Source of the DNA: Escherichia phage vB_EcoM_EC001
Length of the DNA: 64,000 nt
Sequence record: MN445185.1
Strand: one strand, 5' to 3'
A program made the position numbers and the translations under genes. Within the stretch, counting starts at the first letter, position 1. Every line of letters begins with the position of its first letter. Positions 1 through 12,166 of the stretch are shown piece after piece. The notes beneath the pieces were generated by a model. That model saw nothing but the letters and a program-made list of their open reading frames with translations. It made no database searches and was not told where the DNA came from.

Positions 1-634
1 GCCTGATTGGAGTAAACCGCCGTCAATCACCTCTATCCTGTCACTGACCAGCAAATTGGGGTCGGTGAACGTATATGGGGAGTGGGGAACTCTTAGCACG
101 ACTGATGCTAACTTCCTGGATTACGTGTGGTTACGACACCAGTTCGGTGCCGACCAAGCGTATTACCAGTCTATCAGTGGGAGCTATCGTTCATACACCT
201 ACATCTACACCTCTTCTGGCTTTTGGCCAATCCTGGAGATGTTTGATGTTGCCAATGAACCTGTGCCGTTGATTGACGAAGGTGCAGAACTGACATGGGC
301 ACCGTCCGTGGTTACTCTGACGGACATCTACCAAAATGAATCGCTTCGTGTGGTGCCTATTACGGAAACCTCCGCTGCAGCGAATCCACGTCCGTTAGTT
401 TTCAACACCGACAACACCGAAACTGCCACCCCTGCCTGGCTGCGGGAAGCGTCATCAGACTCACCACGTCCTCTGCTTGCCACGACGGACAATGATGAAC
501 GTGCATATTCCGTCGCGGTAACAGGCATGGCTAGCGTTAAGATTAGACCGATTATTCTCACGACTGACCAAATCGCCCAACCTTCAAAAATTACTCTGGG
601 CGATACTAACGGTGAGTTGGATGGATTCCAATAA
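1..634 (+). CDS. Hypothetical structural protein, 5'-truncated (reading frame open to window start)
   Basis: Frame 2 has no stop from position 2 to 634; the track start at 56 is a TTG. C-terminal motif TNGELDGF is shared with the 9033..9581 product. Confidence 0.5.
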   Translation, partial: PDWSKPPSITSILSLTSKLGSVNVYGEWGTLSTTDANFLDYVWLRHQFGADQAYYQSISGSYRSYTYIYTSSGFWPILEMFDVANEPVPLIDEGAELTWAPSVVTLTDIYQNESLRVVPITETSAAANPRPLVFNTDNTETATPAWLREASSDSPRPLLATTDNDERAYSVAVTGMASVKIRPIILTTDQIAQPSKITLGDTNGELDGFQ

Positions 635-646
635 GAGGTAACGACA

Positions 647-1636
647 ATGGCTTTTACAATTCGTTGGACGAACAATAACCCTGGGGCTTCGACCGTGAAG
701 CTGTACCGCGACACCAAACCTCTGGTGCGTACAGCATTACCTGAACCTCTGGCAACGTTCACTAACGGGGAAACTGAGTATACTGACCGAACAGCGATAC
801 TGGGGACAACGTATTACTACATGACCACTGTGACAGTGGGAAGCCGAACACTGTTCAGTCCGCAGAAATCAATTCTGATTCAGAACCGTCGCGGTATCGG
901 CATCGTGGCTCCACAGTACGGTGATGACCGCTTTGCGTATTACGGGTACGTGGCGTACGGTGAATTACCTAGCGCGGGTGATTATCCGCCAGGGTTTATG
1001 GCCCTTTCTGGATATGACCCAACTGTTAAGCCGGGCTTGATGAAGTTCCAGCTAGACGGTAAAATTCTGTATCTGTTTAGTGGTCTTCGTGTGAACGGCA
1101 ACACACCGTATAGCCGTGATGCGATTTATAACGCGTGTTTGCTGTACGGTGTGGCGGGACCTGGTCCGGAAGGCGGTCATGGCGATTTACCTGACGTTGA
1201 CCAGGCTGGGGAGTTTACGTGGTTGGGTGACCGCTATCGGATGCGCCTGCTGCGCGGTTTAACACTCGACAGTGAAAGCCCGGTCATGACACTCGACGCA
1301 CAGTGGAACGGTAAACTCCATGACGAGTCGCCGTATACTGCCGATAGCGAATACAACCGACTCATCTATGGGATAAGTAGCTGGTTCCCAGAAAAGAAAA
1401 AAGTGATGTCCCTGATAAAGTGGTCGAACACCAGCATATTCGGAAGTGGATCGCTGGTGGCAGGCCGTGGGGCGCATTGTCAGGAGTTTGACCCAGACAG
1501 TAAGTTGGGGCTGACGCGCGGATGGGCGGCGGCGGATTCCACTGATACCGTGGATAACCTCCAGCGTATACAACATGTCCCTGGTGCGACCGTGGGCGGT
1601 ATTTGGATTCCAGTAATCGAGCTTATCGAGGATTAA
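647..1636 (+). CDS. Hypothetical virion protein with FN3-like N-terminal domain
   Basis: RBS GAGGT before ATG 647. N-terminus (STVKLYRDTKP...TEYTD...GTTYYY) has an FN3/Ig-like pattern and is paralogous to the next gene. Confidence 0.55.
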   Translation: MAFTIRWTNNNPGASTVKLYRDTKPLVRTALPEPLATFTNGETEYTDRTAILGTTYYYMTTVTVGSRTLFSPQKSILIQNRRGIGIVAPQYGDDRFAYYGYVAYGELPSAGDYPPGFMALSGYDPTVKPGLMKFQLDGKILYLFSGLRVNGNTPYSRDAIYNACLLYGVAGPGPEGGHGDLPDVDQAGEFTWLGDRYRMRLLRGLTLDSESPVMTLDAQWNGKLHDESPYTADSEYNRLIYGISSWFPEKKKVMSLIKWSNTSIFGSGSLVAGRGAHCQEFDPDSKLGLTRGWAAADSTDTVDNLQRIQHVPGATVGGIWIPVIELIED

Positions 1637-1638
1637 TC

Positions 1639-2538
1639 ATGCCTATTACATTACACTTTGCACAACGGAAGCCACAGGCGCTCGATAACATCGAAATCTA
1701 TCGCAAGACGCCGGGCAACGCCACCATTGATGTTAATGCACCGGGAACGCCTCTGGCAACCCTTCCGGGTGACGCTACATCGTACGAAGACAACGCTGTG
1801 GAAAACAACACCACTTACCGTTATTGGATAGCTGCGGTTAAAGACGGTGAGCGTGTCTTCAACACCCCTACCGCCCAAGGGTTCTTTTTAGACACCGGGC
1901 CTGGCCCCCAGAAGCTGTTATACGGCGACTGGCACGCTGGATACTTTGGAACAGTAACGCCAGCAGAGTTATTCACTAACACGGAACTGAACAGCCTCGT
2001 GGTGAATATGTTCAGTTCCGCCGTTGGTGCCTGGCATAAGTTCATTTACAAAAACCGTATTCTGTTTATGTCCGATAACTCGATAATATACGCTAGCCCG
2101 CAGTTCATTTATAACCAGGGGCTGATGTACGGCCAGGATGGCAACGGATATGTACCGGGCTGGGCTACTGCACGTAACCAACGCCGCACGGTGACGAAAA
2201 ACGGTTACGAATACGTGGTGCGCTTGCCGTATTTGTTCGACTACAAATTCTGGACGTCTTACGTTGGAAGCGGTAACACTGAGTTGTATCTCGACGGTGA
2301 GTGGTTTAACACCTTCGCGCGCCTGTACAACTACAGTGGGCAGTTTCCGCGCTTTGACGACATTCCGGTCGGTCCAATCGATTCGGTTACTGCCCAACAA
2401 TCTGCATTCTTTGCGGCTATGAATAACACGTCCAGTCAGTGGTACAACCGTCCACCTTACCCTGAGTCGCCGTCGTGGAGTAACTACGGTACCACTACAA
2501 TACGCTCCATTGCGGTACTTGAACTCGTTCTGCCTTAA
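1639..2538 (+). CDS. Hypothetical virion protein, paralog of 647..1636
   Basis: ATG 1639 preceded by GAGGA chosen over the overlapping track start 1603. Same N-terminal pattern (IEIYRKTPG...TSYEDNAVENNTTYRYW). Followed by terminator 2590..2617. Confidence 0.55.
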   Translation: MPITLHFAQRKPQALDNIEIYRKTPGNATIDVNAPGTPLATLPGDATSYEDNAVENNTTYRYWIAAVKDGERVFNTPTAQGFFLDTGPGPQKLLYGDWHAGYFGTVTPAELFTNTELNSLVVNMFSSAVGAWHKFIYKNRILFMSDNSIIYASPQFIYNQGLMYGQDGNGYVPGWATARNQRRTVTKNGYEYVVRLPYLFDYKFWTSYVGSGNTELYLDGEWFNTFARLYNYSGQFPRFDDIPVGPIDSVTAQQSAFFAAMNNTSSQWYNRPPYPESPSWSNYGTTTIRSIAVLELVLP

Positions 2539-2589
2539 CAGGAGACTTCATGGGGTTGTATAGCGCACTTTACCATAACAGCTAAAAAT

Positions 2590-2617
2590 AGGCCCTTCGG
2601 GGCCTATTTTCTTTTTT
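2590..2617 (+). terminator. Intrinsic terminator (hairpin AGGCCC-TTCG-GGGCCT plus T-run)
   Basis: Perfect 6-bp GC stem, TTCG loop, followed by ATTTTCTTTTTT. Confidence 0.7.
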
Positions 2618-2628
2618 AGGACGTTGCA

Positions 2629-3948
2629 ATGATCAACTATAACAAACCTGTCATGCAACTGGTTTGGGATCAGATTAATCGTGATAACCCGCAGCTCAAG
2701 AAACCGCTCAACGCAACCAACGTGGCGTTATTACAAGGTCCTTTAACCAATGCCTTGCGCGATGGCCGCAACAGCCGTATCGTGGTAAACGGATTACAGG
2801 GTGGTGGTTACAGCGGTAAGATGGACATCTACTACGACCGCTTAAACCTTTCGCAGTATTTTAAAGGCGTCAGCGTACCGGTTAAAGTACCTTATCGGGC
2901 GACGGTCTACCGCGACATCATCGACCGAATTTCCGCAGCTTGTGGGTTGGTGCTTACTGCTGACGATTTAACGTATCCTGACAGCCAGTTTGCAATGATC
3001 ACTGTGGCAACGGGCGATCGGACGGTGGCGATTAAATCGGATAACCCCGCATTCACGGGTTACATTCCTATTAGCTTTATTCGTGAAGAGCCCAGCTTCG
3101 CCGACTTGTACCACATCACCGAAACTGGGGCTTGGGAACCCATGGATGTTTACAGCACGGTCTATCGACTCGACTGGAGCATGTACACCCAACAGATAAT
3201 CAATATCCCAATGGGTACCCCGCTGCGACTAAACAGTAACTCGTACATGACCCAGTTTATCGCGGCGCTGTCGGCATGGTCGGGCATCCCGTTCACTATC
3301 GGTAATGCTGCTACTGATAACCCGTATGACCTCTATGGGTATGTCGCTACACGCAATAACAACCCAGGCTTAGACCCTGATATGCGTGGGGAGTACAAAT
3401 ACTGCGTGAAGTTGACGCCGCCTGAGGATATGGGTAATCTCCGCCGTCCGTTCTTCTTGCACTTTGGTCCGAAAAATAACGTGGCCTATTTGGCGCAGGA
3501 AGAGGACGTCGAACGTTATGCGCGTTACATGAGGTTCCGGGAAACCAGCCCAAATTCGATGAGCGTCACGTTGTATCAAAACGAGTACGTGTTGACTCGG
3601 GCAGAATCGCCTGAAACAGCGGATGATTTAACGGGTTCCCCGTATGGCACTCGATACTGTACCGGGAGTATTCGACGGCTGATGCAACACGCGTTTCCGA
3701 CCGAAGAGATGTTCCAAGAAAGTATTGCTAACCGGCGTCGGGTACTGTACCACACTGCTTACACCACCACGACATCAGCTACTACTTACCAGGGACTATA
3801 CCGTAACGGATACCAATCCAAACAAATGACGAGCCTCTACTCGAATTACTGTAACTATTTCATCTATTACGACCCAAGCAAAGGCGGCTATATGGTCTAC
3901 AGTCCATATAGCAAAACTGCCCCGGTCCCTTGGTATCCAGCGCTATAG
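2629..3948 (+). CDS. Hypothetical structural protein (tail-fibre-like)
   Basis: 439 aa ORF. C-terminal motif YYDPSKGGYMVYSPYSKTAPVPW is shared with the C-terminus of the 3963..6131 product. Confidence 0.5.
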   Translation: MINYNKPVMQLVWDQINRDNPQLKKPLNATNVALLQGPLTNALRDGRNSRIVVNGLQGGGYSGKMDIYYDRLNLSQYFKGVSVPVKVPYRATVYRDIIDRISAACGLVLTADDLTYPDSQFAMITVATGDRTVAIKSDNPAFTGYIPISFIREEPSFADLYHITETGAWEPMDVYSTVYRLDWSMYTQQIINIPMGTPLRLNSNSYMTQFIAALSAWSGIPFTIGNAATDNPYDLYGYVATRNNNPGLDPDMRGEYKYCVKLTPPEDMGNLRRPFFLHFGPKNNVAYLAQEEDVERYARYMRFRETSPNSMSVTLYQNEYVLTRAESPETADDLTGSPYGTRYCTGSIRRLMQHAFPTEEMFQESIANRRRVLYHTAYTTTTSATTYQGLYRNGYQSKQMTSLYSNYCNYFIYYDPSKGGYMVYSPYSKTAPVPWYPAL

Positions 3949-3962
3949 ACTAAGGTGTCACC

Positions 3963-6131
3963 ATGTCATACACTCCCGATTTAGTGGCGACCGTGATTCG
4001 GTCGCTCAACCGTAAAAACGCGGTCGCCAAAGCAGTAGACCCCGCTAACGTACGCCTGGTGTCCGTGGCGCATCGTGACGAAAAAACCCTAGACGTCACA
4101 CTGACAGGGGGTCCGGGGTATTCAAGTTACGGTCAAATTACGGCCCAAGTCACGAAGCAAAATATTGCTGATTATTTCGCCAAGGTTAAGTTGGATGCCA
4201 TTCCCACTTGTGCGTCCATCCACGAACTGTTGCCGCATTTAGACACTCTACTAGGGATTACCTTTTTAACCGACGACTTTGAAGACCTGCCTATCACTTG
4301 GACAAACAATGCTGCGCGCGTCACGTTCCAGGCGAAACAGACAAGTCTTATCTGGTACGGCAGCCAAACGCTAGATGTGATAAACGGTGACGTGGATATC
4401 AACACTGTCTACACTGTTACCAATATCATTCTCACGCTAAAGGCTGCGAATAAACAGCAGTGGATTAACTTCTACTCTAATGCAACCAAACGGATCGTGG
4501 ATCTTGATAAAGTCGATGTCAGCGCCCCGATGTCCCCGGAGGATATAGGCCAAACCTCTGCGTATAACAGCGTCGTAGCATTGACCGCTAGACCGGGGAG
4601 CGGGATGTTTGGAACGAAGTATGTGTTCTTCTCACGTAACAAACTCGAGACATATGCAGGCAAAACCACATACGTCCCGGATGATTTCACCGGTAGCCTG
4701 CACGATGCTCTGGCCATCGAGACACTCGGCATTCGGAGCGTTTTTGATGTAAACGAAATTGCTCCTGTAGAGAACCTGGCAGGCGAGTGGCCAAGACAAG
4801 TGCAATTGGCACCCGTAGAGGGTTCGTACAAAGTCATGGGCAACGCCACGTTGAATGTGGCACGCTATCAAGATAACGAGCAAACCCTTAACCTGAACTA
4901 CACAACTACGTCGCAACTTTCGGACAGCTACTGGGCCACAACGTTGATCAACCATGCGGCGTGCGGGCGTTTGTTTGTTAACGTGACCGTAGATGCAGGG
5001 GCTTTCGTTTATCGCGACAGCAACCTGAAACCGACGTTCGTTATCGACGAATTGCCGCAAATTGGCGAGGTGGTTTGGAACTTCGTTAACCGGGGAACCA
5101 TTCTTGGTCGTGGTGGTTCTGGTATGGTCTACTCTATGCCTGCGAACACATCAGCGGACGGAGCTGACGCAATCCACATTAGCGATACCTTCCGTGGCAA
5201 AGTCACCATCGAAAACTACGGCACCATCGCCGGTGGTGGGGGTGGGGGCGACTACTATGCGTTTAGCACCACCAAGATCGGTGGAGCTGGTGGTGCGCCT
5301 CTCGGGCCAGGCGCGGCGGTGCCCAGCGGCACCAATAACCGTAACGGCTTAGCTGGGTCCCGTGACAAAGGCGGTGCTACCCAGTTAGTCGTCGAGCAAT
5401 TTACCGGCTACCAGAGTCGCTACTATGGCGGTCCGGGTGGGGATTGGGGCCAGCCGGGACGATATACAGCGTTCGAGCAATGGAACACCCCGGCTACCGG
5501 CTCGCCAGTCTATGTCTACGGTCGTGAAGACGGGATGTCATGGACTCGCCCTGGGATGGCAGGCGAAGCTGTCGGTGGGAATAAAAGTATCGTCAACTGG
5601 GTATCCGTCGGAACGGTGAAACCGAATGTTACCGACGAGTACCAAGAGTTCCTCGACTACCTCGCAGTTTTAGATGCCAATCGACTGGCCAGTGCGGATG
5701 GGATAGATAAAGTCACCGACCCAACCAAGCCTGTAGTTGTGGAGTTCTTAGGTACGATTATTTCAGGTACGCTGTTCAAAAAGCAAAACATACCCGGCGG
5801 TTTGGTGGGAACACCATACGGCGATGCTATAGCCAATTTACCGAGCACCACATTGTTTGGTATCATGGCACACAGTGTATCTGAGTTTGATATTGTGCAC
5901 GACACTTGGCGTTACAACCGTGCGGTAATGTTCACGCTAAAACCCGCGCCTACCGGGACGATTAACCTCGCTGTGGAACGCAACCGGGTGAAATCGGCTA
6001 CCAGTAGTGCACCGGTGGAGAAGTTCTATGTCGATCGCTTCGTGTATTACGATGCGTATCTCGGTAAGATGATGGAATGTAATCCGTATACCAAATCCGC
6101 CCCTAAACCGTGGGTGCGGCCAAAGAAATAG
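3963..6131 (+). CDS. Putative tail fibre/adhesin-like protein with Gly-rich segment
   Basis: 722 aa; GGGGGGDYY...GGAGGAPLGPGAA glycine-rich region; C-terminal PYTKSAPKPW motif paralogous to the previous gene; followed by terminator 6187..6218. Confidence 0.5.
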   Translation: MSYTPDLVATVIRSLNRKNAVAKAVDPANVRLVSVAHRDEKTLDVTLTGGPGYSSYGQITAQVTKQNIADYFAKVKLDAIPTCASIHELLPHLDTLLGITFLTDDFEDLPITWTNNAARVTFQAKQTSLIWYGSQTLDVINGDVDINTVYTVTNIILTLKAANKQQWINFYSNATKRIVDLDKVDVSAPMSPEDIGQTSAYNSVVALTARPGSGMFGTKYVFFSRNKLETYAGKTTYVPDDFTGSLHDALAIETLGIRSVFDVNEIAPVENLAGEWPRQVQLAPVEGSYKVMGNATLNVARYQDNEQTLNLNYTTTSQLSDSYWATTLINHAACGRLFVNVTVDAGAFVYRDSNLKPTFVIDELPQIGEVVWNFVNRGTILGRGGSGMVYSMPANTSADGADAIHISDTFRGKVTIENYGTIAGGGGGGDYYAFSTTKIGGAGGAPLGPGAAVPSGTNNRNGLAGSRDKGGATQLVVEQFTGYQSRYYGGPGGDWGQPGRYTAFEQWNTPATGSPVYVYGREDGMSWTRPGMAGEAVGGNKSIVNWVSVGTVKPNVTDEYQEFLDYLAVLDANRLASADGIDKVTDPTKPVVVEFLGTIISGTLFKKQNIPGGLVGTPYGDAIANLPSTTLFGIMAHSVSEFDIVHDTWRYNRAVMFTLKPAPTGTINLAVERNRVKSATSSAPVEKFYVDRFVYYDAYLGKMMECNPYTKSAPKPWVRPKK

Positions 6132-6186
6132 TTATCATAATTTAACGAGGAACTTGACGGGGTTAAAGCCTGAGAATAACCCATGC

Positions 6187-6218
6187 CCTCTTCCCCACGG
6201 GGAAGAGGCTTTCTTTTT
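6187..6218 (+). terminator. Intrinsic terminator after 3963..6131
   Basis: CCTCTTCCCC / GGGGAAGAGG stem followed by CTTTCTTTTT. Confidence 0.65.
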
Positions 6219-6245
6219 ATGACCCTATCAACGCAGGAGGTTATC

Positions 6246-6836
6246 GTGGTCGATCGTTGGAGTAAAGAGGGCATTATTCGTGCCAAAGTAAACATCGAAG
6301 CCGGTTACGTTAATAACCCGAAAGATTTGGGCAAAGCAACGAACCGCGGTGTCACTGAACTCACAGCGCGTGAATATGGCTATAAAGGGGATATGCGTGA
6401 CCTGAGCCTAGAAACCGCGTTAGACATTTACAACAAGCTCTGGTGGCAGCGGATGCGCTTAGACCAGATTATGAAAATGAATGTCCTGCTAGCTGACCGG
6501 ATGTTTGATTTCGGCATCAACGCAGGTCGCGGTAACTGTATCAAGTCCCTGCAGCGCATTCTGAACGTATTAAACCGTCAGGGTAAACTGTACGACGACA
6601 TCGAAGCAGATGGCGGTATTGGGCCACGTACGTTAACAGCGTTAGAAGGCTTTATCAAAGCCCGTGGGGAAGAGGGCCTGAATCGACTGATATTCGCTTT
6701 AACCTGTCATCAGGTTGCGTACTACACGGAAATCAGTGAAGGGCGTGAGGATAACGAAGAGTTTACTTACGGCTGGTATGGCCGCGTCTATCAGGAAATG
6801 CCAGACTACGTGGCTAAGTTGGGGATGTGTAAATGA
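6246..6836 (+). CDS. Endolysin, GH108-like muramidase with C-terminal peptidoglycan-binding domain
   Basis: EAGYVNNPKDLGKATNRGVT matches the GH108 N-terminal EGGYVNDP.DPGG.T..G signature; DGGIGPRTL and GWYGRVY match the PG_binding_3 pattern. GTG 6246 follows RBS AGGAGG (6235-6240); track start 6183 and ATG 6219 lie inside the upstream terminator hairpin. Confidence 0.75.
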   Translation: MVDRWSKEGIIRAKVNIEAGYVNNPKDLGKATNRGVTELTAREYGYKGDMRDLSLETALDIYNKLWWQRMRLDQIMKMNVLLADRMFDFGINAGRGNCIKSLQRILNVLNRQGKLYDDIEADGGIGPRTLTALEGFIKARGEEGLNRLIFALTCHQVAYYTEISEGREDNEEFTYGWYGRVYQEMPDYVAKLGMCK

Positions 6837-7124: not shown

Positions 7125-7766
7125 ATGGAAGCACTTAAGTATAAGTTGTTAGAGAAGCCGTGGTTTATTCTCACGGATGATTTCCATTTCGAGTTTACGT
7201 TGCGCAGCCTCTATCGTGAACAGACCGGAATGGATGCGATGGTAGCATTATCAGGTGTACATCCGGATACTCCGTTATGGGTAACGGTGCCGAAAGGATT
7301 TGTAACGGACCTGGCAAGCATTCCAGAAGCGTTACGTCCTATCCTGCATCCGGATGGCCCTTGGGCTGCTGCCGCTTGTGTGCATGATTTGTTTTACCAG
7401 AAACGTTCATCGGTAGGCTTTTACCCTGACACCGTTGAAGGTAATCTATCTCGTGCTTGCGACAAAACATTCGCTGACTTGATGTTCTTACGCATCATGG
7501 AGGCATTAGGCGTTGACACCTTTATTCGTAAGTCCTTCTACCATGCCGTTCACGAGTTTGGTTGGCCGTCCTATGTAGACGATAACTCTAAGGTGGTTTA
7601 TAGCCGGCCGGTAGAAAAGACGTTGTCCTATAATCGCAACTACCTGTTCTTTAGAACGTCGCGTACGTTAGCGATTCCTGAACACGAACGTGTTGACATC
7701 ACTAATGGGCAACCGGTAAACGTGCAGTATTTGAATATCAAACGTGCGTTCCTGACTGCCCCTTAA
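7125..7766 (+). CDS. Hypothetical protein
   Basis: 213 aa ORF with RBS GAGG before ATG; no motif recognised with confidence. Confidence 0.5.
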   Translation: MEALKYKLLEKPWFILTDDFHFEFTLRSLYREQTGMDAMVALSGVHPDTPLWVTVPKGFVTDLASIPEALRPILHPDGPWAAAACVHDLFYQKRSSVGFYPDTVEGNLSRACDKTFADLMFLRIMEALGVDTFIRKSFYHAVHEFGWPSYVDDNSKVVYSRPVEKTLSYNRNYLFFRTSRTLAIPEHERVDITNGQPVNVQYLNIKRAFLTAP

Positions 7767-7775
7767 GGAGAGAAA

Positions 7776-8291
7776 ATGTTTCATCCGAATCCTGCCAACT
7801 TCGCGTTAAAAGAGTTGATGCCGCAGGAGTACATCGCGAAATACGGTGAAGGTGCTATTCGTTTCCTTAATCCGTTACTGCTAATCTCGCTCCAACAGAT
7901 TCGTAATCGTTTTGGGCGGATGGTGATTTTAACCAGTTCCCAGCAACAGCGTAGTCTGCGTACCCTGCAGTTCTTTATTAATCAAGAGAAACCAAAGGGT
8001 GGAGATTGGCAAACTCGTGCAAACAAACTGTACGCCGAATCAGGCAGTATGCATAAATTCGGTAATGCGTTTGATGCAACAATGCTCGATACTCCGTTGC
8101 AGAAAGTGCACGATTATATTGCCGCGAACCCTGACGAGTTTCCATTTATTCACTTTATCGAGTGCGATATTACCTGGCTACATGTTGACGTACGCAACCA
8201 ACCTGATATCACCTTCTGGTCACCAACACGTGGTACCGTTAAAGTGGTAAAACAACAACCCATCGATTGGAGCAAGCTAGTTAAAATCTAA
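7776..8291 (+). CDS. Peptidase M15-family peptidoglycan hydrolase (T5-endolysin-like L-alanyl-D-glutamate peptidase)
   Basis: RBS AAGGAG; zinc-ligand motifs H-x6-D (SMHKFGNAFD) and downstream LHVDV closely resemble the T5 endolysin/VanY pattern (HITGDAID ... HVEL). Confidence 0.65.
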   Translation: MFHPNPANFALKELMPQEYIAKYGEGAIRFLNPLLLISLQQIRNRFGRMVILTSSQQQRSLRTLQFFINQEKPKGGDWQTRANKLYAESGSMHKFGNAFDATMLDTPLQKVHDYIAANPDEFPFIHFIECDITWLHVDVRNQPDITFWSPTRGTVKVVKQQPIDWSKLVKI

Positions 8292-8370: not shown

Positions 8371-8430
8371 GGTAAATAAAGCCCTTACCCACTCCCCTTA
8401 CGGGAGTGGGTAAGCACTATTTATTTTCTT
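8371..8430. terminator. Bidirectional intrinsic terminator between convergent genes
   Basis: 13-bp stem CTTACCCACTCCC / GGGAGTGGGTAAG (8384-8396, 8402-8414), A-rich upstream and T-rich downstream. Confidence 0.7.
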
Positions 8431-8908
8431 CTAACGGAACAATCGTAACCGGGGTAGGAACTTCGTCAATAAAGCCGCCGCTGCAGCGAAAGAACGTCAT
8501 CCCTTTACCTTCCCCGGTATGCGGGTTCACATCCGAAAAAGAGTAAGTGGGGCCATCGTTTACGGTTTTATTAATACGGTAATAACGCTCACCTGTGGTG
8601 GTGTTAACATTCCCGTCGATTTTGCCAATTGTATCTTTAAACATCATCGGTGACTCAAGTTTGCCACCGTCCCACGTTGCTACCCAGTTTGCACCCACAT
8701 CCATTACTGTTACTGACCGCGGCATCATTTGTAGGTTGTCCAGTACCGGACGGTAGTCTATAAACTTCTCCTGTGTCCCTGTGCATGTATAAATCACCAA
8801 GTCGCGATTCTTTACCGGTGTGCTGCTAAATTGTCCGATGTTGCTTGGTGACTGGACGCAACCGGTCAACAGGCTTATAAACGCGAATACGATAAATAGA
8901 CGTTTCAT
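8417..8908 (-). CDS. Lipoprotein (signal peptide with lipobox LTGC)
   Basis: N-terminus MKRLFIVFAFISLLTGC; isolated minus-strand gene between a bidirectional terminator and a divergent intergenic region. Confidence 0.65.
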   Translation of the reverse strand: MKRLFIVFAFISLLTGCVQSPSNIGQFSSTPVKNRDLVIYTCTGTQEKFIDYRPVLDNLQMMPRSVTVMDVGANWVATWDGGKLESPMMFKDTIGKIDGNVNTTTGERYYRINKTVNDGPTYSFSDVNPHTGEGKGMTFFRCSGGFIDEVPTPVTIVPLEENK

Positions 8909-9032: not shown

Positions 9033-9581
9033 ATGGCAGTCATCTCTGCAAAAGACCAACTCGTCGCGCTGTTTAATGCCGCAAACAGCGGACTGCCTAG
9101 TCCGTTAACTGCTGCTGACGTTACATTCGGCGCTGTTGCTGACTATTCACCAGCTGATTCTGGAGACACTCGCAACTCCAAACTCACCATCACCGCCACC
9201 GCGGAATCCGCTAACTTTACTGGCGAGAAAGAGCTGCATTATACCCGCCTCAATTTATCGGACTTCATCGGTGCGAAAGCAGTGACCGCTGACCAGGCAG
9301 AATGGGATACCGATGAAGAAGTGCTTGCTTTTGTCAACGCAGAACTATTTGGCGACGGTGAAACGGAAGATCCGTTTGCGTTGTCTGAACTCACCATTTC
9401 ACGCGAAGACGGCAGCAGTGGTGAGAAAGTCATCACTGTTATGGTGAAAGAAGGCCACATTAAATTCCAACCTGTCAGCCTTGGAGTTTATACTGTAACG
9501 CAGCCAATCGTTAAAACTGACCTGAGCACCACCAACGGTGAACTGGGCGGATTCGGCGGCGAAGGTCACGCTGGCATGTAA
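9033..9581 (+). CDS. Hypothetical protein
   Basis: RBS AAGGAA; C-terminal TTNGELGGF motif resembles the C-terminus of the 1..634 product. Confidence 0.5.
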   Translation: MAVISAKDQLVALFNAANSGLPSPLTAADVTFGAVADYSPADSGDTRNSKLTITATAESANFTGEKELHYTRLNLSDFIGAKAVTADQAEWDTDEEVLAFVNAELFGDGETEDPFALSELTISREDGSSGEKVITVMVKEGHIKFQPVSLGVYTVTQPIVKTDLSTTNGELGGFGGEGHAGM

Positions 9582-9610
9582 CAGAGCAATTAGTAGTTTC
9601 TAAGAAATAA

Positions 9611-9657
9611 ATAAAAGGTACCTACCTCCCTTCGGGGAGGTAGGGCCTTTATTTTCT
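9611..9657. terminator. Bidirectional intrinsic terminator (end of minus-strand operon and of 9033..9581)
   Basis: CCTACCTCCC-TTCG-GGGAGGTAGG hairpin flanked by A-run and T-run. Confidence 0.7.
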
Positions 9658-9661
9658 TTGC

Positions 9662-10333
9662 TTACATGCCGAGTGATTCGGACAATGTTTTTAATCCAGT
9701 GTAATCGCGCTTTTCAGCTAACTCACGGATTTGGCGTTTGTTATCTGCCATTGCTGAGTGCAACACCTGGTCGCGTGCAACAATAGCGGCCAACAACGCT
9801 TTACATTGGTCTACTGTAAACGGACTGTGCTTCGTATTCAGCGTATCGAGCCAGTATTCTGGTGCGGTATCTGCCTGAATGTATTGACCGAGGATGGTAC
9901 GCGACGATTCATCGGCTTGAAAGTGACTACCTTCAAACTCGATATAACCATGACGCTCATCTTCGTAGCGATGGTCAAGTTCCAACAGCATCTTCTGCAC
10001 GTCTTCGTAAATGTAACGTGCGGTAGATTTCAGATTCCCGCGAATTTCGTCGAGGTCAATCTCCAGCACATTAGCAATAAACTCTTTCGTGCGTTTCAAT
10101 GTGAATTTAGCTTCAATCTCCGACATCTCATACAGCTTCATGCGTGCCAGGGCTTCTTTATCAGACATCCCTTCGATGAGATGATAATGGAGCAGAGCGC
10201 AAAAGCCTGTACGGCCCTGATCCTGCGCACCGATTCGTTCCATGAAATTACCGTGACGATCAATCGGCAAATCACGCTGGAAATAACGGGCGCGGATCTC
10301 TTCGTTCGTTAAGCTTTTGTCAGTAACAGACAT
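9662..10333 (-). CDS. Hypothetical protein (last gene of the minus-strand operon)
   Basis: 223 aa ORF ending just before bidirectional terminator 9611..9657; no recognisable motif. Confidence 0.5.
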   Translation of the reverse strand: MSVTDKSLTNEEIRARYFQRDLPIDRHGNFMERIGAQDQGRTGFCALLHYHLIEGMSDKEALARMKLYEMSEIEAKFTLKRTKEFIANVLEIDLDEIRGNLKSTARYIYEDVQKMLLELDHRYEDERHGYIEFEGSHFQADESSRTILGQYIQADTAPEYWLDTLNTKHSPFTVDQCKALLAAIVARDQVLHSAMADNKRQIRELAEKRDYTGLKTLSESLGM

Positions 10334-10875
10334 TCGTCCTCCTCAATCAGGCCAAGTTCTAACAACAAACCGAAGTCCAGCATCTGGAAGTCCTGATCGA
10401 GGTTACCGGCCCACAACAGAGAAATGTTGTGTTGCTCTTCTTCTTCCAACTGCGGGAGCAGGTGTTCTTCGAAGATTTGACGTTCTGTGTAATAAGCGTC
10501 AACCGGGTTATTGGAGCGTAAGTTACGAATACGCATCCGCGGGAAAGACAAGCCCAAAGCCACTAAACTTTCAGGACTGGCTTCATCGATGGAATGACGT
10601 AGCAGTTCGATTTTGTGGCGTGGGTATGCGAGCAGTCGCTTCTCAAAGCCAGGGTTGCGCTTTTCGATTTCCGCGACAGACTCGTGTCCTTTCTCAACGC
10701 AGTAGACCGGGATCATCACATTCAGCCCGTATTTAATCAACAGGCTTTGGATTTCATCAGTGAAGTCTTCCCCTGCCACAATTGCGTGCACATTGTACAG
10801 CTTGCTTTTGCGCAGGAAGCGATCGACCAAGTGCAGTTTACGCTTCGTAAAATTGTGAATCAGTATTGACTTCAT
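10309..10875 (-). CDS. Hypothetical protein
   Basis: Start moved to the internal ATG (MKSILIHNF...) which has GGAG 7 nt upstream; overlaps the upstream rSAM gene by about 38 nt. Confidence 0.5.
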   Translation of the reverse strand: MKSILIHNFTKRKLHLVDRFLRKSKLYNVHAIVAGEDFTDEIQSLLIKYGLNVMIPVYCVEKGHESVAEIEKRNPGFEKRLLAYPRHKIELLRHSIDEASPESLVALGLSFPRMRIRNLRSNNPVDAYYTERQIFEEHLLPQLEEEEQHNISLLWAGNLDQDFQMLDFGLLLELGLIEEDECLLLTKA

Positions 10876-12166
10876 TCTGGGCTCCGTTTTGTAATTTTTC
10901 TGCTTCGGCACGTTGGCGTACACAACGTGAACAATAGCACATGGATTTATCATGCAAATCTGATGCGCGGGTCGTACCAGTTTTCTGATACCAATATTCC
11001 GCCGCCATCAGTTTCGCAGTAGTCCAACCACACTGACGACGCTCGGCGTGATACGCTTTACGGTCTTCCAGTGTACCTTCACCGTTTTCGTACGATGCTG
11101 CTGCGCAGCTACCGCAACTGTGTTTCATCGGACACCCTAAACAGGTTTCTGGGTAGTTGGTGTACTGCGTTTGAATCTCTTCTAACAGCTTACCACCGTC
11201 CAGGCTCACAAACTCACGACCGACCAGTTCTGCTACAGCAGAGCGGGAAGTTACCGTGGACATGAAACGGTTACAACCGTAAATCTTGCGATCAAAGCCG
11301 AGACAGGTCATGTGCGTCAACGTACCGCAGTACGGTTTCAGGCGTTCTGGGTCGAGACGAACAGAGTCGTCATGTAAGAGTTTGTCACGCCAATCCGGGT
11401 CCCAAGTTGCCATAAAGTTCAGGCCATCCGGGATGATGTGCGTAATCGTGTTACGCGGGTTGGTGTGCAGACCCTTCTCAATCCAGTAGTCCATCACGTC
11501 CATCATCTGGTTCGCGATATCCAACGCCATATGGCGCGGCAGGATATCTTCGTACGTTACATTACCAGAAATGGTACCACCGCCGGACATGTCAATTAAC
11601 GATTTCATGCTGGCGGCATAGTGCGGCAATGTATCGATCGTGAACGTCGCCTTTACGCCCAGCTCAGCGATGCCGACACTCTTCAGATAATTGTAACCGC
11701 GTACCGCAGCTTCGTACGACCCTTCACGCGTCGTGGTAAAGATACGATATTTGTCATGGACTTCAGGTAAACCATCGATGGAGACCCCAATAGACAGTTT
11801 GTCTTTCCAGCGCTCGATAATTTCTTTGTTCAGCGGACGGTCCAGAAGTGTACCGTTCGTGGAGATACTGAACATATACGGGCGATTGTGTTCTGCGCAT
11901 AACTTCTCTGCGGTTTCAAAGGCCGCCAAAAGAAGTTTAGGCTGCATGAACGGCTCACCACCAATGATATCGATGATGACTTCAACGTTCGGGATATCTT
12001 TATCGCGCTCGAAACAAGCGTGGATAAAATCAATCACGTCTGCTACTTTGTTGTTACGAGGATATTTACGCTCGTAGCAGTATTCGCAGTCCAGGTTACA
12101 TGACAGGTTAGTCACAACCTGATACGTGCGTGGTGTGTACTGGATTTGCTGTTCGCTGTTACTCAT
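10838..12166 (-). CDS. Radical SAM enzyme with C-terminal Cys-rich (SPASM/twitch-like) auxiliary cluster domain
   Basis: CNLDCEYC (CxxxCxxC) near the N-terminus and GGEP SAM-binding motif; C-terminal clusters CGTLTHMTC, CLGCPMKHSCGSC (Cx2Cx5Cx2C) and CYCSRC. Start overlaps the upstream gene stop (ATGAGTAA). Confidence 0.8.
   Translation of the reverse strand: MSNSEQQIQYTPRTYQVVTNLSCNLDCEYCYERKYPRNNKVADVIDFIHACFERDKDIPNVEVIIDIIGGEPFMQPKLLLAAFETAEKLCAEHNRPYMFSISTNGTLLDRPLNKEIIERWKDKLSIGVSIDGLPEVHDKYRIFTTTREGSYEAAVRGYNYLKSVGIAELGVKATFTIDTLPHYAASMKSLIDMSGGGTISGNVTYEDILPRHMALDIANQMMDVMDYWIEKGLHTNPRNTITHIIPDGLNFMATWDPDWRDKLLHDDSVRLDPERLKPYCGTLTHMTCLGFDRKIYGCNRFMSTVTSRSAVAELVGREFVSLDGGKLLEEIQTQYTNYPETCLGCPMKHSCGSCAAASYENGEGTLEDRKAYHAERRQCGWTTAKLMAAEYWYQKTGTTRASDLHDKSMCYCSRCVRQRAEAEKLQNGAQNEVNTDSQFYEA

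What the first reader, a model, noticed from the sequence alone, without database searches (positions are those of the whole stretch)
647..6131. Plus-strand structural paralogs: FN3-like N-termini and a shared C-terminal PY(S/T)K(T/S)AP.PW tail
647..1636 and 1639..2538 share an FN3-like N-terminal pattern. 2629..3948 and 3963..6131 share a C-terminal motif of about 25 residues (YYD...G.M...PY[ST]K[TS]AP.PW). The 722-aa protein also has a polyglycine segment. This suggests domain shuffling among host-interaction proteins.
Basis: seen in the sequence. Interest (0 to 1): 0.35.

Follow-up and report, generated by a model that had tools for sequence, protein, structure and literature searches.

The report
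Jumbo-phage virion adhesin-like paralog cluster
These four genes are near-identical copies of known particle proteins of the giant Salmonella phage SPN3US, built from swappable modules (a fibronectin-like head, a filament-forming anchor, a T-even-type glycine-rich adhesin and a previously undescribed end domain); this gives a testable idea of what a puzzling protein family does, but it is not a new kind of system.

Summary
The window is a Seoulvirus (SPN3US-like, Chimalliviridae) genome. The four ORFs are 98-99% identical to SPN3US gp149, gp150, gp154 and gp155.

gp154 and gp155 also share an N-terminal DUF7941 module.
- **Polyglycine:** this belongs to a Gp38-type adhesin module (Pfam E 9e-19) that lacks the gp37-attachment domain.

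Published SPN3US proteomics puts all four proteins in the virion, co-purifying with tailless heads ("paralog family B"). A 2026 preprint shows that a DUF7941 protein forms filaments and proposes a host-recognition "fibre cloud" on the baseplate.

Best reading: these are modular virion-surface adhesin proteins. The domain shuffling is shown; the host-binding role and the location on the particle are inferred. Interest is moderate, as new members of a known kind.

The parts
1..634 (+). 3' part of a gp148-type gene, cut by the window start. This is the first gene of the three-gene cassette. It ends in the tail TNGELDGFQ.
   Evidence: The frame is open to base 2. It is 97.9% identical to SPN3US gp148 residues 307-498. 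It matches phrog_3589 positions 318-512.
647..1636 (+). gp149 orthologue, 329 aa: the second cassette gene, with an FN3 head (about residues 1-85, window 647-901).
   Evidence: 98.5% identical to SPN3US gp149. Matches phrog_1062 at E=4e-48. Aligns from residue 1 with the 299-aa paralog. Its N-terminus is part of the FN3 profile A4.
1639..2538 (+). gp150 orthologue, 299 aa: the third cassette gene. It has an FN3 head (residues 1-85, window 1639-1893), an invariant GPGP linker (residues 87-90), and a ~210-residue second domain of unmatched fold. That second domain is shared with gp145/148/151-type proteins.
2539..2557 (+). Remnant of a further cassette gene start (AGGAG, ATG, a few codons). SPN3US and SPLA3 keep about 29 codons here reading MGLYSAPELELLCQQVVRDNPEL; the window and Lh1B have an 87-bp deletion.
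   Evidence: DNA alignment of the spacer in four genomes, compared with the gp151 N-terminus.
2585..2610 (+). Terminator-like hairpin (11 pairs) followed by a T run. It separates the cassette from the gp154-gp155 pair.
   Evidence: Consensus scan. The hairpin is conserved in all four aligned genomes.
2629..3948 (+). gp154 orthologue, 439 aa. DUF7941 N-terminal domain (residues 1-160, window 2629-3108); low-confidence linker (161-173); DUF7941 C-terminal lobe (174-290, window 3148-3498); LCCL-like end domain (291-439, window 3499-3945).
3963..6131 (+). gp155 orthologue, 722 aa. DUF7941 N-terminal domain (residues 11-154, window 3993-4424); unassigned middle; Gp38-like beta-helix and glycine-rich module (362-553, window 5046-5621; GGGGGG at 5232-5249); LCCL-like end domain (556-722, window 5628-6128).
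   Evidence: Pfam DUF7941 E=1.6e-23 and GP38 E=9e-19. PDB sequence matches to gp38 chains 9v85 and 6f45. Glycine-rich motifs. C-terminal domain. 98.6% identical to SPN3US gp155.
6187..6208 (+). Terminator-like hairpin after the gp155 orthologue.
   Evidence: Consensus scan.
9033..9581 (+). gp160 orthologue, 182 aa: a small DUF7941 protein. In SPN3US it is one of the most abundant virion proteins (>300 copies) and a candidate filament building block. It carries the TNGELxGF tail.
   Evidence: Pfam DUF7941 E=1.9e-12. 89% identical to SPN3US gp160. Copy-number estimate from PMC5694885.

Best explanation
The four genes are the distal end of the 'paralog family B' / DUF7941 virion-protein cluster of a Seoulvirus (SPN3US-like chimallivirus). 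They encode modular proteins that I think sit on the outside of the particle and act in adhesion. There are two transcription units.

**Unit 1 (window ..2538).** This is one copy of a repeated three-gene cassette:
- a DUF7941-headed protein (gp148 type);
- an FN3-headed protein A (gp149 type);
- an FN3-headed protein B (gp150 type).

The FN3 proteins share their second domain with the DUF7941-headed protein. The same body domain is thus presented behind either of two heads, and the three probably work together.

**Unit 2 (2629-6131).** This encodes gp154 and gp155.
- Both start with the DUF7941 module. In phage Goslar a DUF7941 protein polymerises head-to-tail into filaments, and in phiKZ a DUF7941 N-terminal domain sits at the tip of the outer baseplate.
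- Both end with the same ~150-residue domain, whose predicted fold is closest to LCCL.
- gp155 carries in between a Gp38-type beta-helix plus polyglycine module without the gp37-attachment domain.

**Proposed mechanism.** The DUF7941 head plugs these low-copy proteins into, or caps, filaments built from abundant small DUF7941 proteins (gp160 and gp141 types). The Gp38-like and LCCL-like modules bind envelope components of the host, and the FN3 proteins act as spacers or adaptors.

**Shown versus inferred.**
- *Shown:* homologies, domain architecture, modular distribution, and virion presence as uncleaved proteins in SPN3US.
- *Inferred:* filament incorporation, surface exposure, ligand binding, and where on the particle they sit.
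For: **Identity.** DNA is 96-97% identical to phages SPLA3 and Lh1B. Proteins are 98-99% identical to SPN3US gp148-150, gp154 and gp155. Seoulvirus is classified in Chimalliviridae.

**Domains.**
- Pfam DUF7941 and GP38, both above the curated cut-offs.
- FN3 fold.
- DUF7941 N-terminal domain / floppy linker / C-terminal lobe layout in the gp154 model, matching the description of Goslar gp22.
- Glycine-rich motifs are conserved and the intervening segments variable across gp155-type proteins of different genera.

**C-terminal domain.**
- 495 clusters at E<=1e-3. Fusions are nearly always C-terminal, behind DUF7941(+GP38), C1q, Laminin_G_3 and Lcl_C modules.
- One-to-one sequence tests against cochlin LCCL give P=0.0025 and E=5e-4, both aligning RNGYxS with ANGIQS.
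- The only invariant residue in 107 family members is a histidine in the predicted central helix.

**Virion presence.**
- SPN3US gp148-155 and gp160 were detected in CsCl-purified virions and in tailless particles, with head/wild-type ratios of 1.1-1.7. The major capsid protein gives 1.39; tail proteins give below 0.1.
- gp154 and gp155 run at full size in the gel (slices 5 and 8), so the end domain is not cleaved off.

**Filaments.** Goslar gp22 forms filaments in negative stain, and other Goslar DUF7941 proteins carry carbohydrate-binding, glycoside hydrolase or LRR modules.

**Operon structure.** Conserved terminator-like hairpins bound the units. The gp154-gp155 pair and the cassette move as separate blocks between genera.
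Against: - None of these four proteins has been shown to bind anything, to enter a filament or to be surface-exposed.
- **Location is contradictory in the literature.** SPN3US proteomics puts the whole family with tailless heads. The phiKZ structure places gp127 on the outer baseplate, and the Goslar preprint proposes baseplate anchoring for all DUF7941 proteins.
- The Gp38-like loops show no hypervariability among seven Seoulvirus genomes (94-99% identity; the changes cluster in a linker at 551-575). Proteus phage 7 and Salmonella phages share almost identical gp155.
- Free-standing copies of the end domain in RAY and PCH45 lie among non-structural genes, next to a DNA polymerase gene. This fits an assembly or intracellular role as well as an adhesion role.
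Confidence: 0.55

Rival explanations
1. They are classical tail-fibre or baseplate receptor-binding proteins. gp155 would be the host-range-determining adhesin at a fibre tip, like Gp38 of T2 or S16. gp154 and the FN3 proteins would be fibre shaft or adaptor pieces.
For: - PHROGs labels the Gp38-like region 'tail fiber protein; host specificity'.
- One GenBank record annotates the orthologue as 'Phage tail fiber adhesin Gp38'.
- phiKZ gp127 (DUF7941) is modelled on the outer baseplate.
- The Goslar preprint proposes baseplate anchoring.
Against: - In SPN3US the orthologues are as abundant in tailless particles from two different mutants as in whole virions, whereas sheath, tape measure and the gp168-170 fibre candidates drop more than 10-fold.
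- The gp37-attachment part of the GP38 profile (positions 1-50) is absent.
- There is no hypervariability among relatives with different reported hosts.
Confidence: 0.2
2. They are internal head proteins, packaged with the DNA or lining the shell. The adhesin-like domains would be used after ejection or for capsid assembly, not for host recognition.
For: Ali et al. and Weintraub et al. classify the whole paralog family B, and gp155, as head proteins because they are present in tailless particles. SPN3US heads are known to carry many internal ejection proteins.
Against: - The domain content (FN3, Gp38-type adhesin module, partners such as C1q and ConA-like lectin) is typical of extracellular binding proteins.
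- None of them is among the eight SPN3US head proteins processed by the prohead protease.
- A DUF7941 protein forms external-type filaments in vitro, and a DUF7941 domain is seen on the outside of the phiKZ baseplate.
Confidence: 0.1
3. The shared C-terminal domain is not a ligand-binding module. It would be an assembly device: a folding chaperone, an oligomerisation cap or a docking domain. The free-standing copies in other phages would be the trans-acting version.
For: - Most family members are free-standing ~165-aa proteins, some in tandem pairs, and in RAY and PCH45 they lie outside the structural gene blocks.
- The domain is almost always the very last one in fusions, as are many fibre chaperone domains (the chaperone comparison is from general knowledge).
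- In CR5 and Phobos it is followed by the NGELxGF-type tail that other family members use at their C-termini.
Against: - It stays on the mature protein in SPN3US: gp154 and gp155 run at full size with 60-79% peptide coverage. It is therefore not a self-cleaving chaperone.
- The predicted fold resembles LCCL, an extracellular domain.
- The invariant His and near-invariant RNG..S, D and P residues look like a conserved site rather than a generic interface.
Confidence: 0.15

Closest known systems
SPN3US 'paralog family B' virion proteins (Ali et al. 2017, PMC5694885; Weintraub et al. 2023, PMC10052503)
   Same: The window proteins are 98-99% identical orthologues of gp148, gp149, gp150 and gp154, which are listed as family B members, and of gp155. 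All were detected in virions and in tailless heads.
   Different: - The papers give no function and no domain analysis, and do not list gp155 as a member.
- Here gp155 is shown to carry the DUF7941 head.
- The FN3-headed proteins are linked to the family only through the second domain they share with gp145/148/151. They show no detectable relation to gp154.
- This genome has one cassette fewer than SPN3US.
DUF7941 filament proteins of chimalliviruses (Goslar gp22/gp23; phiKZ gp126/gp127; bioRxiv 10.64898/2026.04.21.720040; PMC13250141)
   Same: - Pfam DUF7941 is matched above the cut-off.
- gp154 has the same N-terminal domain / disordered linker / C-terminal lobe layout.
- Some members carry extra C-terminal host-recognition-type modules.
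- The family is restricted to chimalliviruses.
   Different: - The cargo here (a Gp38-type module and an LCCL-like domain) is not among the cargo types listed for Goslar (carbohydrate-binding, glycoside hydrolase, LRR).
- The SPN3US proteomic data place the family with heads, not the baseplate.
- Filament formation has not been tested for these proteins.
Gp38 tail-fibre tip adhesins of T2/T6/S16-type Straboviridae (Pfam PF05268; PDB 6f45, 9v85)
   Same: There is a significant Pfam match over profile positions 51-214, covering the beta-helix and polyglycine sandwich region. Four or five glycine-rich motifs alternate with variable segments (family description from PMC12032242).
   Different: - The module is embedded in the middle of a 722-aa protein.
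- It lacks the N-terminal gp37-attachment domain.
- It sits in a nucleus-forming jumbo phage.
- Its loops are not hypervariable among close relatives.
- The protein fractionates with heads in SPN3US.
LCCL domain (cochlin, Limulus factor C, CRISPLD2/Lgl1; Pfam PF03815; PDB 1jbi)
   Same: - The order of secondary-structure elements is the same: three strands, a central helix with a conserved His, then three strands.
- There is a weak, register-consistent sequence match at NG(I/Y)xS.
- From general knowledge, LCCL domains are extracellular and some are reported to bind LPS or bacteria.
   Different: - There is no Pfam LCCL match.
- The four LCCL disulfide cysteines (recalled from general knowledge of the family) have no conserved counterpart in the phage family.
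- An extra helix and an N-terminal extension are present.
- The similarity rests on a predicted model.
PHROG family phrog_6409 (171-aa proteins of unknown function)
   Same: The end domains of gp154 and gp155 match it at E=2e-18 and 2e-7. It corresponds to the free-standing proteins of RAY, PCH45, SPLA10, Kaldavass and SURPRISE13.
   Different: Here the domain is fused to the C-terminus of virion proteins rather than free-standing.

Membership tests
DUF7941 (Pfam PF25613) chimallivirus filament proteins | Sequence match to the family model above the curated cut-off | tested here: met
   The 439-aa protein scores 89.8 bits, the 722-aa protein 84 bits and the 182-aa protein 47.7 bits, against a cut-off of 27. 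The two FN3 proteins have no match.
DUF7941 (Pfam PF25613) chimallivirus filament proteins | N-terminal globular domain, disordered linker, C-terminal globular domain (as in Goslar gp22) | tested here: met
   For gp154: the AlphaFold2 model has pLDDT below 50 at residues 161-173, between two folded parts, and phrog_1037 is matched over positions 1-287 of 290. For gp155 only the N-terminal domain is recognisable.
DUF7941 (Pfam PF25613) chimallivirus filament proteins | Structural similarity to the solved phiKZ gp127 N-terminal domain | tested here: inconclusive
   [not shown]
DUF7941 (Pfam PF25613) chimallivirus filament proteins | Head-to-tail polymerisation into filaments | not testable with these tools
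   This needs multimer prediction or purified protein. It has been shown only for Goslar gp22.
Gp38 adhesin (Pfam PF05268) | Sequence match above the curated cut-off | tested here: met
   68.6 bits against a cut-off of 25, residues 362-553 on profile positions 51-214 of 218. Weak direct matches to gp38 chains 9v85 (E=0.0026) and 6f45 (E=0.011).
Gp38 adhesin (Pfam PF05268) | About five conserved glycine-rich motifs alternating with variable segments | tested here: met
   GRGGSG at 382-387, GGGGGG at 424-429, GGAGG at 440-444, GGPGGDWG at 489-496 and a weaker PG.AG..V motif. These are conserved across six gp155-type proteins of 24-39% identity, while the spacers vary.
Gp38 adhesin (Pfam PF05268) | N-terminal domain that attaches the monomer to the gp37 fibre tip | tested here: not met
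   Profile positions 1-50 are not matched. The module is preceded by 360 residues that start with DUF7941.
Gp38 adhesin (Pfam PF05268) | Hypervariable loops that differ between close relatives with different hosts | tested here: not met
   Seven Seoulvirus orthologues are 94-99% identical, with 0-3 variable columns per 25-residue bin across residues 376-550. The peak of variation is in the linker at 551-575.
Gp38 adhesin (Pfam PF05268) | Three-layer polyglycine-II sandwich fold | not tested
Fibronectin type III domain | Seven-strand beta-sandwich fold of about 80-90 residues | tested here: met
   [not shown]
Fibronectin type III domain | Sequence-level match to FN3 families | tested here: inconclusive
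   There is no Pfam fn3 match. A profile of 20 N-termini matches the FN3 domain of Pel3 (4u49) at E=5e-4 and 3mpc at E=2e-3.
LCCL domain (Pfam PF03815) | Fold: central helix wrapped by two beta-sheets | tested here: inconclusive
   [not shown]
LCCL domain (Pfam PF03815) | Sequence match to the family model | tested here: not met
   One of 107 members matches at E=0.095. The profile finds no PDB sequence. Only hypothesis-driven one-to-one tests are positive: P=0.0025 and E=5e-4.
LCCL domain (Pfam PF03815) | Conserved cysteines forming two disulfides, and the conserved His of the central helix | tested here: not met
   The His is invariant in 107 sequences, but no cysteine column is conserved. 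The cysteine criterion is recalled from general knowledge of the family.
SPN3US paralog family B | Orthology to a listed member (gps 83, 138-154, 160, 237) and presence in the virion | tested here: met
   97.9-99.3% identity to gp148, gp149, gp150 and gp154. The membership list and mass-spectrometry data are. gp155 is not listed in the papers but shares both terminal domains with gp154.

The most novel reading that the evidence does not exclude
The shared end domain is a virus-borne, highly diverged LCCL-type module that binds LPS or another envelope glycan. It would be the first such family described in phages (about 500 clusters, mostly jumbo phages). In Seoulviruses it would sit together with a Gp38-type adhesin on DUF7941 filaments that are attached to the capsid rather than the baseplate, so that the head of a nucleus-forming jumbo phage takes part in catching the host.
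Probability: 0.15. Interest if true: 0.65.

Novelty: new member of a known kind. Interest (0 to 1): 0.4.

Why it matters
SPN3US is the genetic model for nucleus-forming jumbo phages, and its twenty-member 'paralog family B' has had no assigned function since 2017. Three points follow from reading the family as modular DUF7941 and FN3-headed proteins.

1. **Testable hypotheses.** At least one member carries a T-even-type adhesin module, and two carry an LCCL-like end domain. This can be tested by adsorption phenotypes of amber mutants, binding assays with the isolated domains, and localisation on tailless particles.

2. **An unresolved conflict between two published lines.** The proteins track with heads in SPN3US proteomics, but a DUF7941 protein sits on the baseplate in the phiKZ structure and baseplate anchoring is the Goslar model. 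This bears on how these phages find their hosts.

3. **A named lead for an uncharacterised domain family.** The end domain forms about 500 clusters, and this work gives it a structural lead and an invariant histidine to mutate.

None of this changes the picture of what kind of system this is.

Tried and rejected
- **Word-index homologue search with the isolated C-terminal 148 residues** found nothing. The domain was recovered instead by tblastn against phage genomes and by an exhaustive profile search.
- **Sequence searches for the end domain** gave no credible match: Pfam and PDB with 11-sequence and 107-sequence profiles. Weak SeqA and NTF2_YvbJ hits were discarded as chance.
- **Relation between the FN3 family and the gp154 family:** profile-profile comparison gave none (probability 0.1%). 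'One family' is therefore true only through the gp145/148/151-type bridge.
- **Hypervariable Gp38 loops** as a sign of host-range selection were not found.
- **Other copies of these domains** in the remaining 58 kb of the window: none apart from the gp160 homologue.
- **The 'glycosyl hydrolase' label** on gp153-type proteins in two GenBank records has no support from Pfam, PHROGs or fold search.
- **Literature checks** on whether free-standing copies (RAY gp282/gp283) are virion proteins were uninformative. The Reilly 2020 paper says nothing about the family.
- **Self-cleaving intramolecular chaperone** was rejected for the end domain, because gp154 and gp155 run at full size in SPN3US gels.
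- **Chance or low-complexity similarity** was rejected on the E-values and profile matches.

Full report
**What the window is.** The region 600-6200 is 97.4% identical to Salmonella phage SPLA3 and 96.4% identical to Escherichia phage Lh1B. It matches some thirty other Seoulvirus genomes, including SPN3US. Seoulvirus belongs to the nucleus-forming family Chimalliviridae.

The ORFs map onto the original SPN3US gene numbers as follows:

| Window ORF | SPN3US orthologue | Identity |
|---|---|---|
| 1-634 | 3' part of gp148 | 97.9% |
| 647-1636 | gp149 | 98.5% |
| 1639-2538 | gp150 | 99.3% |
| 2629-3948 | gp154 | 98.4% |
| 3963-6131 | gp155 | 98.6% |
| 9033-9581 | gp160 | 89% |

The reading frame of the first ORF is open to the first base of the window.

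**Checking the FN3 pair.**
- The 329-aa and 299-aa proteins align from residue 1 over 178 residues (26% identity, E=1e-6).
- Both match phrog_1062 across the same profile interval (E=4e-48 and 2e-56). They are whole-length paralogs.
- I built a 45-sequence alignment of the family. The resulting AlphaFold2 model of the 299-aa protein has mean pLDDT 92.2 and pTM 0.88.
- Foldseek gives probability 1.0 to consensus FN3 scaffolds, fibronectin modules and the FN3 domains of pectate lyases PelI and Pel3.
- A sequence profile of 20 N-termini matches the FN3 part of Pel3 at E=5e-4 and the 'Fn3-like protein' 3mpc at E=2e-3.
- Pfam itself reports nothing for these proteins.
- After the FN3 domain comes an invariant G-P-G-P (residues 87-90) and then a ~210-residue domain with no listed fold match.
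- That second domain is homologous to the middle of the gp145/148/151-type proteins: residues 85-231 match gp145 residues 158-310 (35% identity, E=2e-19). The same link appears through phrog_3589.
- The same body domain therefore exists behind an FN3 head and behind a DUF7941 head.

**Checking the shared C-terminal tail.**
- BLASTP aligns the last 106 residues of the 439-aa and 722-aa proteins at E=1e-7.
- Both match phrog_6409.
- A profile built only from gp154 orthologues finds the 722-aa protein at E=3e-16.
- The motif YYD...PY(S/T)K(T/S)AP.PW is the end of a domain of about 150 residues. Its conserved landmarks are G(T/S)P(Y/W)G, QHA(F)P, RNGYxS, F(I/V)YYD and P....AP..W.
- tblastn finds it in CR5 and Phobos, again as an adjacent gp154-like/gp155-like pair.
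- It also occurs as free-standing proteins of 160-171 residues:
  - Serratia phage PCH45;
  - the Erwinia RAY/Ea35-70 group (two tandem genes);
  - Kaldavass, SURPRISE13 and SPLA10;
  - an unannotated ORF of PhiEaH1.
- An exhaustive profile search of 1.84 billion representative proteins gives 495 clusters at E<=1e-3 and 321 at E<=1e-10. Most are free-standing at 155-175 aa. Some are tandem duplications. Some are C-terminal fusions of 367-954 aa.
- The fusion partners identified by Pfam are DUF7941 with or without GP38, C1q, a ConA-like lectin domain and Lcl_C.
- One of these fusions lies in a bacterial-looking contig.
- The domain has no Pfam family and no PDB sequence match, even with a 107-sequence profile.

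**What the end domain looks like.**
- The AlphaFold2 model of the 439-aa protein is of moderate quality overall (pLDDT 77), but reaches 80-92 over residues 320-439.
- The tool does not say which residues were aligned. I assign the LCCL match to the end domain for two reasons:
  1. The order of secondary-structure elements fits: three strands, a helix carrying the family's only invariant residue (a histidine), then three long strands.
  2. Two one-to-one sequence tests against the cochlin LCCL sequence align RNGYxS with ANGIQS in the same register. hhalign gives P=0.0025 and unfiltered hmmsearch gives E=5e-4 for a single target. I recalled the cochlin sequence from memory and verified it as identical to 1jbi_A.
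- Against homology: Pfam LCCL is essentially not matched, and no cysteine column is conserved.
- I therefore call the domain LCCL-like in predicted fold, with homology open.
- From general knowledge, LCCL domains are extracellular and some (CRISPLD2, cochlin) are reported to bind LPS or bacteria. That would suit a phage adhesion module, but I treat it only as a lead.
- I found no paper describing LCCL domains in phages.

- The 439-aa, 722-aa and 182-aa proteins all begin with DUF7941 (Pfam E=2.8e-25, 1.6e-23 and 1.9e-12).
- The 439-aa protein matches the whole of phrog_1037 over its first 287 residues.
- Its model has a very low-confidence linker at residues 161-173 between two folded parts. 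This is the layout described for Goslar gp22.
- The polyglycine run lies inside a Pfam GP38 match: residues 362-553 on profile positions 51-214 of 218 (E=9e-19, 68.6 bits against a cut-off of 25). There are weak direct matches to the solved gp38 chains 9v85 and 6f45.
- Four clear glycine-rich motifs and a fifth weaker one are present.
- They are conserved among gp155-type proteins that share only 24-39% identity, while the segments between them vary. This is the pattern described for Gp38 (PMC12032242).
- The gp37-attachment part of Gp38 is missing.

**Published evidence.**
- Ali et al. 2017 defined SPN3US 'paralog family B' (gps 83, 138-154, 160 and 237) by PSI-BLAST. They found all members in purified virions and in a tailless mutant, and stated that no function was known.
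- Their supplementary table lists gp152, gp153, gp154, gp155, gp157 and gp160 as head proteins. gp154 is in gel slice 5 (50 kDa) and gp155 in slice 8 (78 kDa), so both are full size.
- Weintraub et al. 2023 repeated this with a defined tail-tube mutant. Normalised head/virion ratios are 1.1-1.7 for gp148-gp154 and gp160; for gp155 I saw the Head assignment but not the ratio value. The ratio is 1.39 for the major capsid protein and below 0.1 for tail proteins.
- Spectral counts per unit mass for gp153, gp154 and gp155 are close to the portal's (12 copies), with gp152 about twice as high. This suggests on the order of ten to a few tens of copies (my inference).
- A 2026 preprint on phage Goslar describes DUF7941 as a chimallivirus-specific family. 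It shows that purified gp22 forms filaments, and notes members with carbohydrate-binding, hydrolase or LRR cargo. It proposes a 'fibre cloud' anchored at the peripheral baseplate, citing density next to phiKZ gp127.
- The phiKZ atlas places gp127 at the end of the star-lobe band of the outer baseplate.
- The Goslar preprint does not mention SPN3US, tailless particles or Gp38.
- The two lines of evidence therefore disagree on where these proteins sit. That disagreement is not resolved here.

**Organisation and dynamics.**
- SPN3US has three consecutive cassettes of DUF7941-headed protein / FN3 protein A / FN3 protein B: gp145-147, gp148-150 and gp151-153.
- This genome, like SPLA3 and Lh1B, goes from gp150 directly to gp154, so it has one cassette fewer.
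- SPLA5c has truncated and chimeric cassette genes.
- The spacer after the last cassette in SPN3US and SPLA3 still carries a ribosome-binding site, an ATG and about 29 codons of a further DUF7941 gene. In the window and in Lh1B an 87-bp deletion removes most of this remnant.
- A conserved terminator-like hairpin (2585-2610) follows, and another lies after gp155 (6187-6208). The cassette and the gp154-gp155 pair therefore look like separate transcription units.
- In CR5 and Phobos the pair comes before the cassette rather than after it.
- Among seven Seoulvirus genomes gp154 and gp155 are 94-99% identical, with no hot spot in the Gp38-like loops.

**Conclusion.** The host-interaction part is a reasonable inference from domain content, but it is unproven and complicated by the head-fraction proteomics.

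The genes are orthologues of known virion proteins in a known family. What this analysis adds:
- assignment of gp155 to the DUF7941 family;
- recognition of its Gp38-type module as an internal cargo;
- the FN3 fold of the cassette proteins;
- definition of the end domain as a widespread uncharacterised family with an LCCL-like predicted fold and one invariant histidine.

I rate it as a new member of a known kind, of moderate interest.

Noticed in passing
window 2539-2628; L003 23658-23835; L001 7937-8114: The spacer after the last FN3 gene holds the remnant of a further cassette gene. In SPN3US and SPLA3 this is AGGAG, ATG and about 29 codons reading MGLYSAPELELLCQQVVRDNPEL. The window and Lh1B carry an 87-bp deletion inside it. 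This looks like a scar of cassette gain or loss by recombination.
   Followed up: partly
window 1-2538 versus SPN3US gp145-153 (L003 13519-23657): This genome lacks the third cassette (gp151-153) of SPN3US, as do SPLA3 and Lh1B. SPLA5c has truncated or chimeric cassette genes.
   Followed up: partly
window 610-634 and 9540-9581; L007 about 6570-6618; L004 about 9580-9621: A second recurrent C-terminal tail, TNGEL(D/G/N)GF, ends gp145, gp148, gp151 and gp160-type proteins. It also follows the LCCL-like domain in Phobos gp145 and CR5_144. The window's gp160 homologue ends ...TNGELGGFGGEGHAGM where SPN3US has ...TNGELDGFV. It may be a docking peptide.
   Followed up: no
window 7125-7766: The DUF1353 protein (gp157 homologue) is labelled 'tail assembly chaperone' by PHROGs. 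It is listed as a low-abundance head protein in the 2017 SPN3US mass spectrometry.
   Followed up: no
window 6183-6836 and 7776-8291: Two lysis-type genes follow the cluster. The first has GH108 plus PG_binding_3 domains; the annotated start in relatives corresponds to window 6219, and the ATG at 6183 overlaps the terminator hairpin. The second matches phrog_894, with a weak Peptidase_M15 match; this is the gp158 homologue, which is non-virion in SPN3US.
   Followed up: no
window 8384-8414 and 9621-9644: Two strong terminator-like hairpins that read on both strands (13 and 10 pairs). The first lies just past the 3' end of the minus-strand gene 8417-8908; the second lies between the convergent genes 9033-9581 (gp160 homologue) and 9662-10333.
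   Followed up: no
L013 1-392; L014 1-392: The gp153-type FN3 protein is annotated 'glycosyl hydrolase' in the Proteus phage 7 and MET_P1_082_240 records. No search here supports that label.
   Followed up: partly
L016 8001-10865: A 954-aa protein (P0224) with C1q and PTL_trimer domains ends in the same LCCL-like domain. It lies in a contig whose neighbours look bacterial (cytidylate kinase, S1, HIT, rhomboid, FliL, SpoIIE). The domain is therefore not confined to jumbo phages.
   Followed up: partly
L006 5872-6897; L005 4875-5357: Free-standing copies of the end domain lie among non-structural genes, just downstream of an annotated DNA polymerase gene in RAY and of its syntenic 601-aa counterpart in PCH45. 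RAY has a tandem pair, gp283 and gp282.
   Followed up: partly
window 10838-12166 (minus strand): A radical SAM domain protein gene, with a second one beyond it in relatives, lies just downstream of the structural cluster on the opposite strand.
   Followed up: no
L004 6128-13106; L007 3131-8438: In CR5 and Phobos (Derbicusvirus) the gp154-like/gp155-like pair precedes the single cassette. In Seoulvirus it follows the cassettes. The two blocks therefore move independently.
   Followed up: partly
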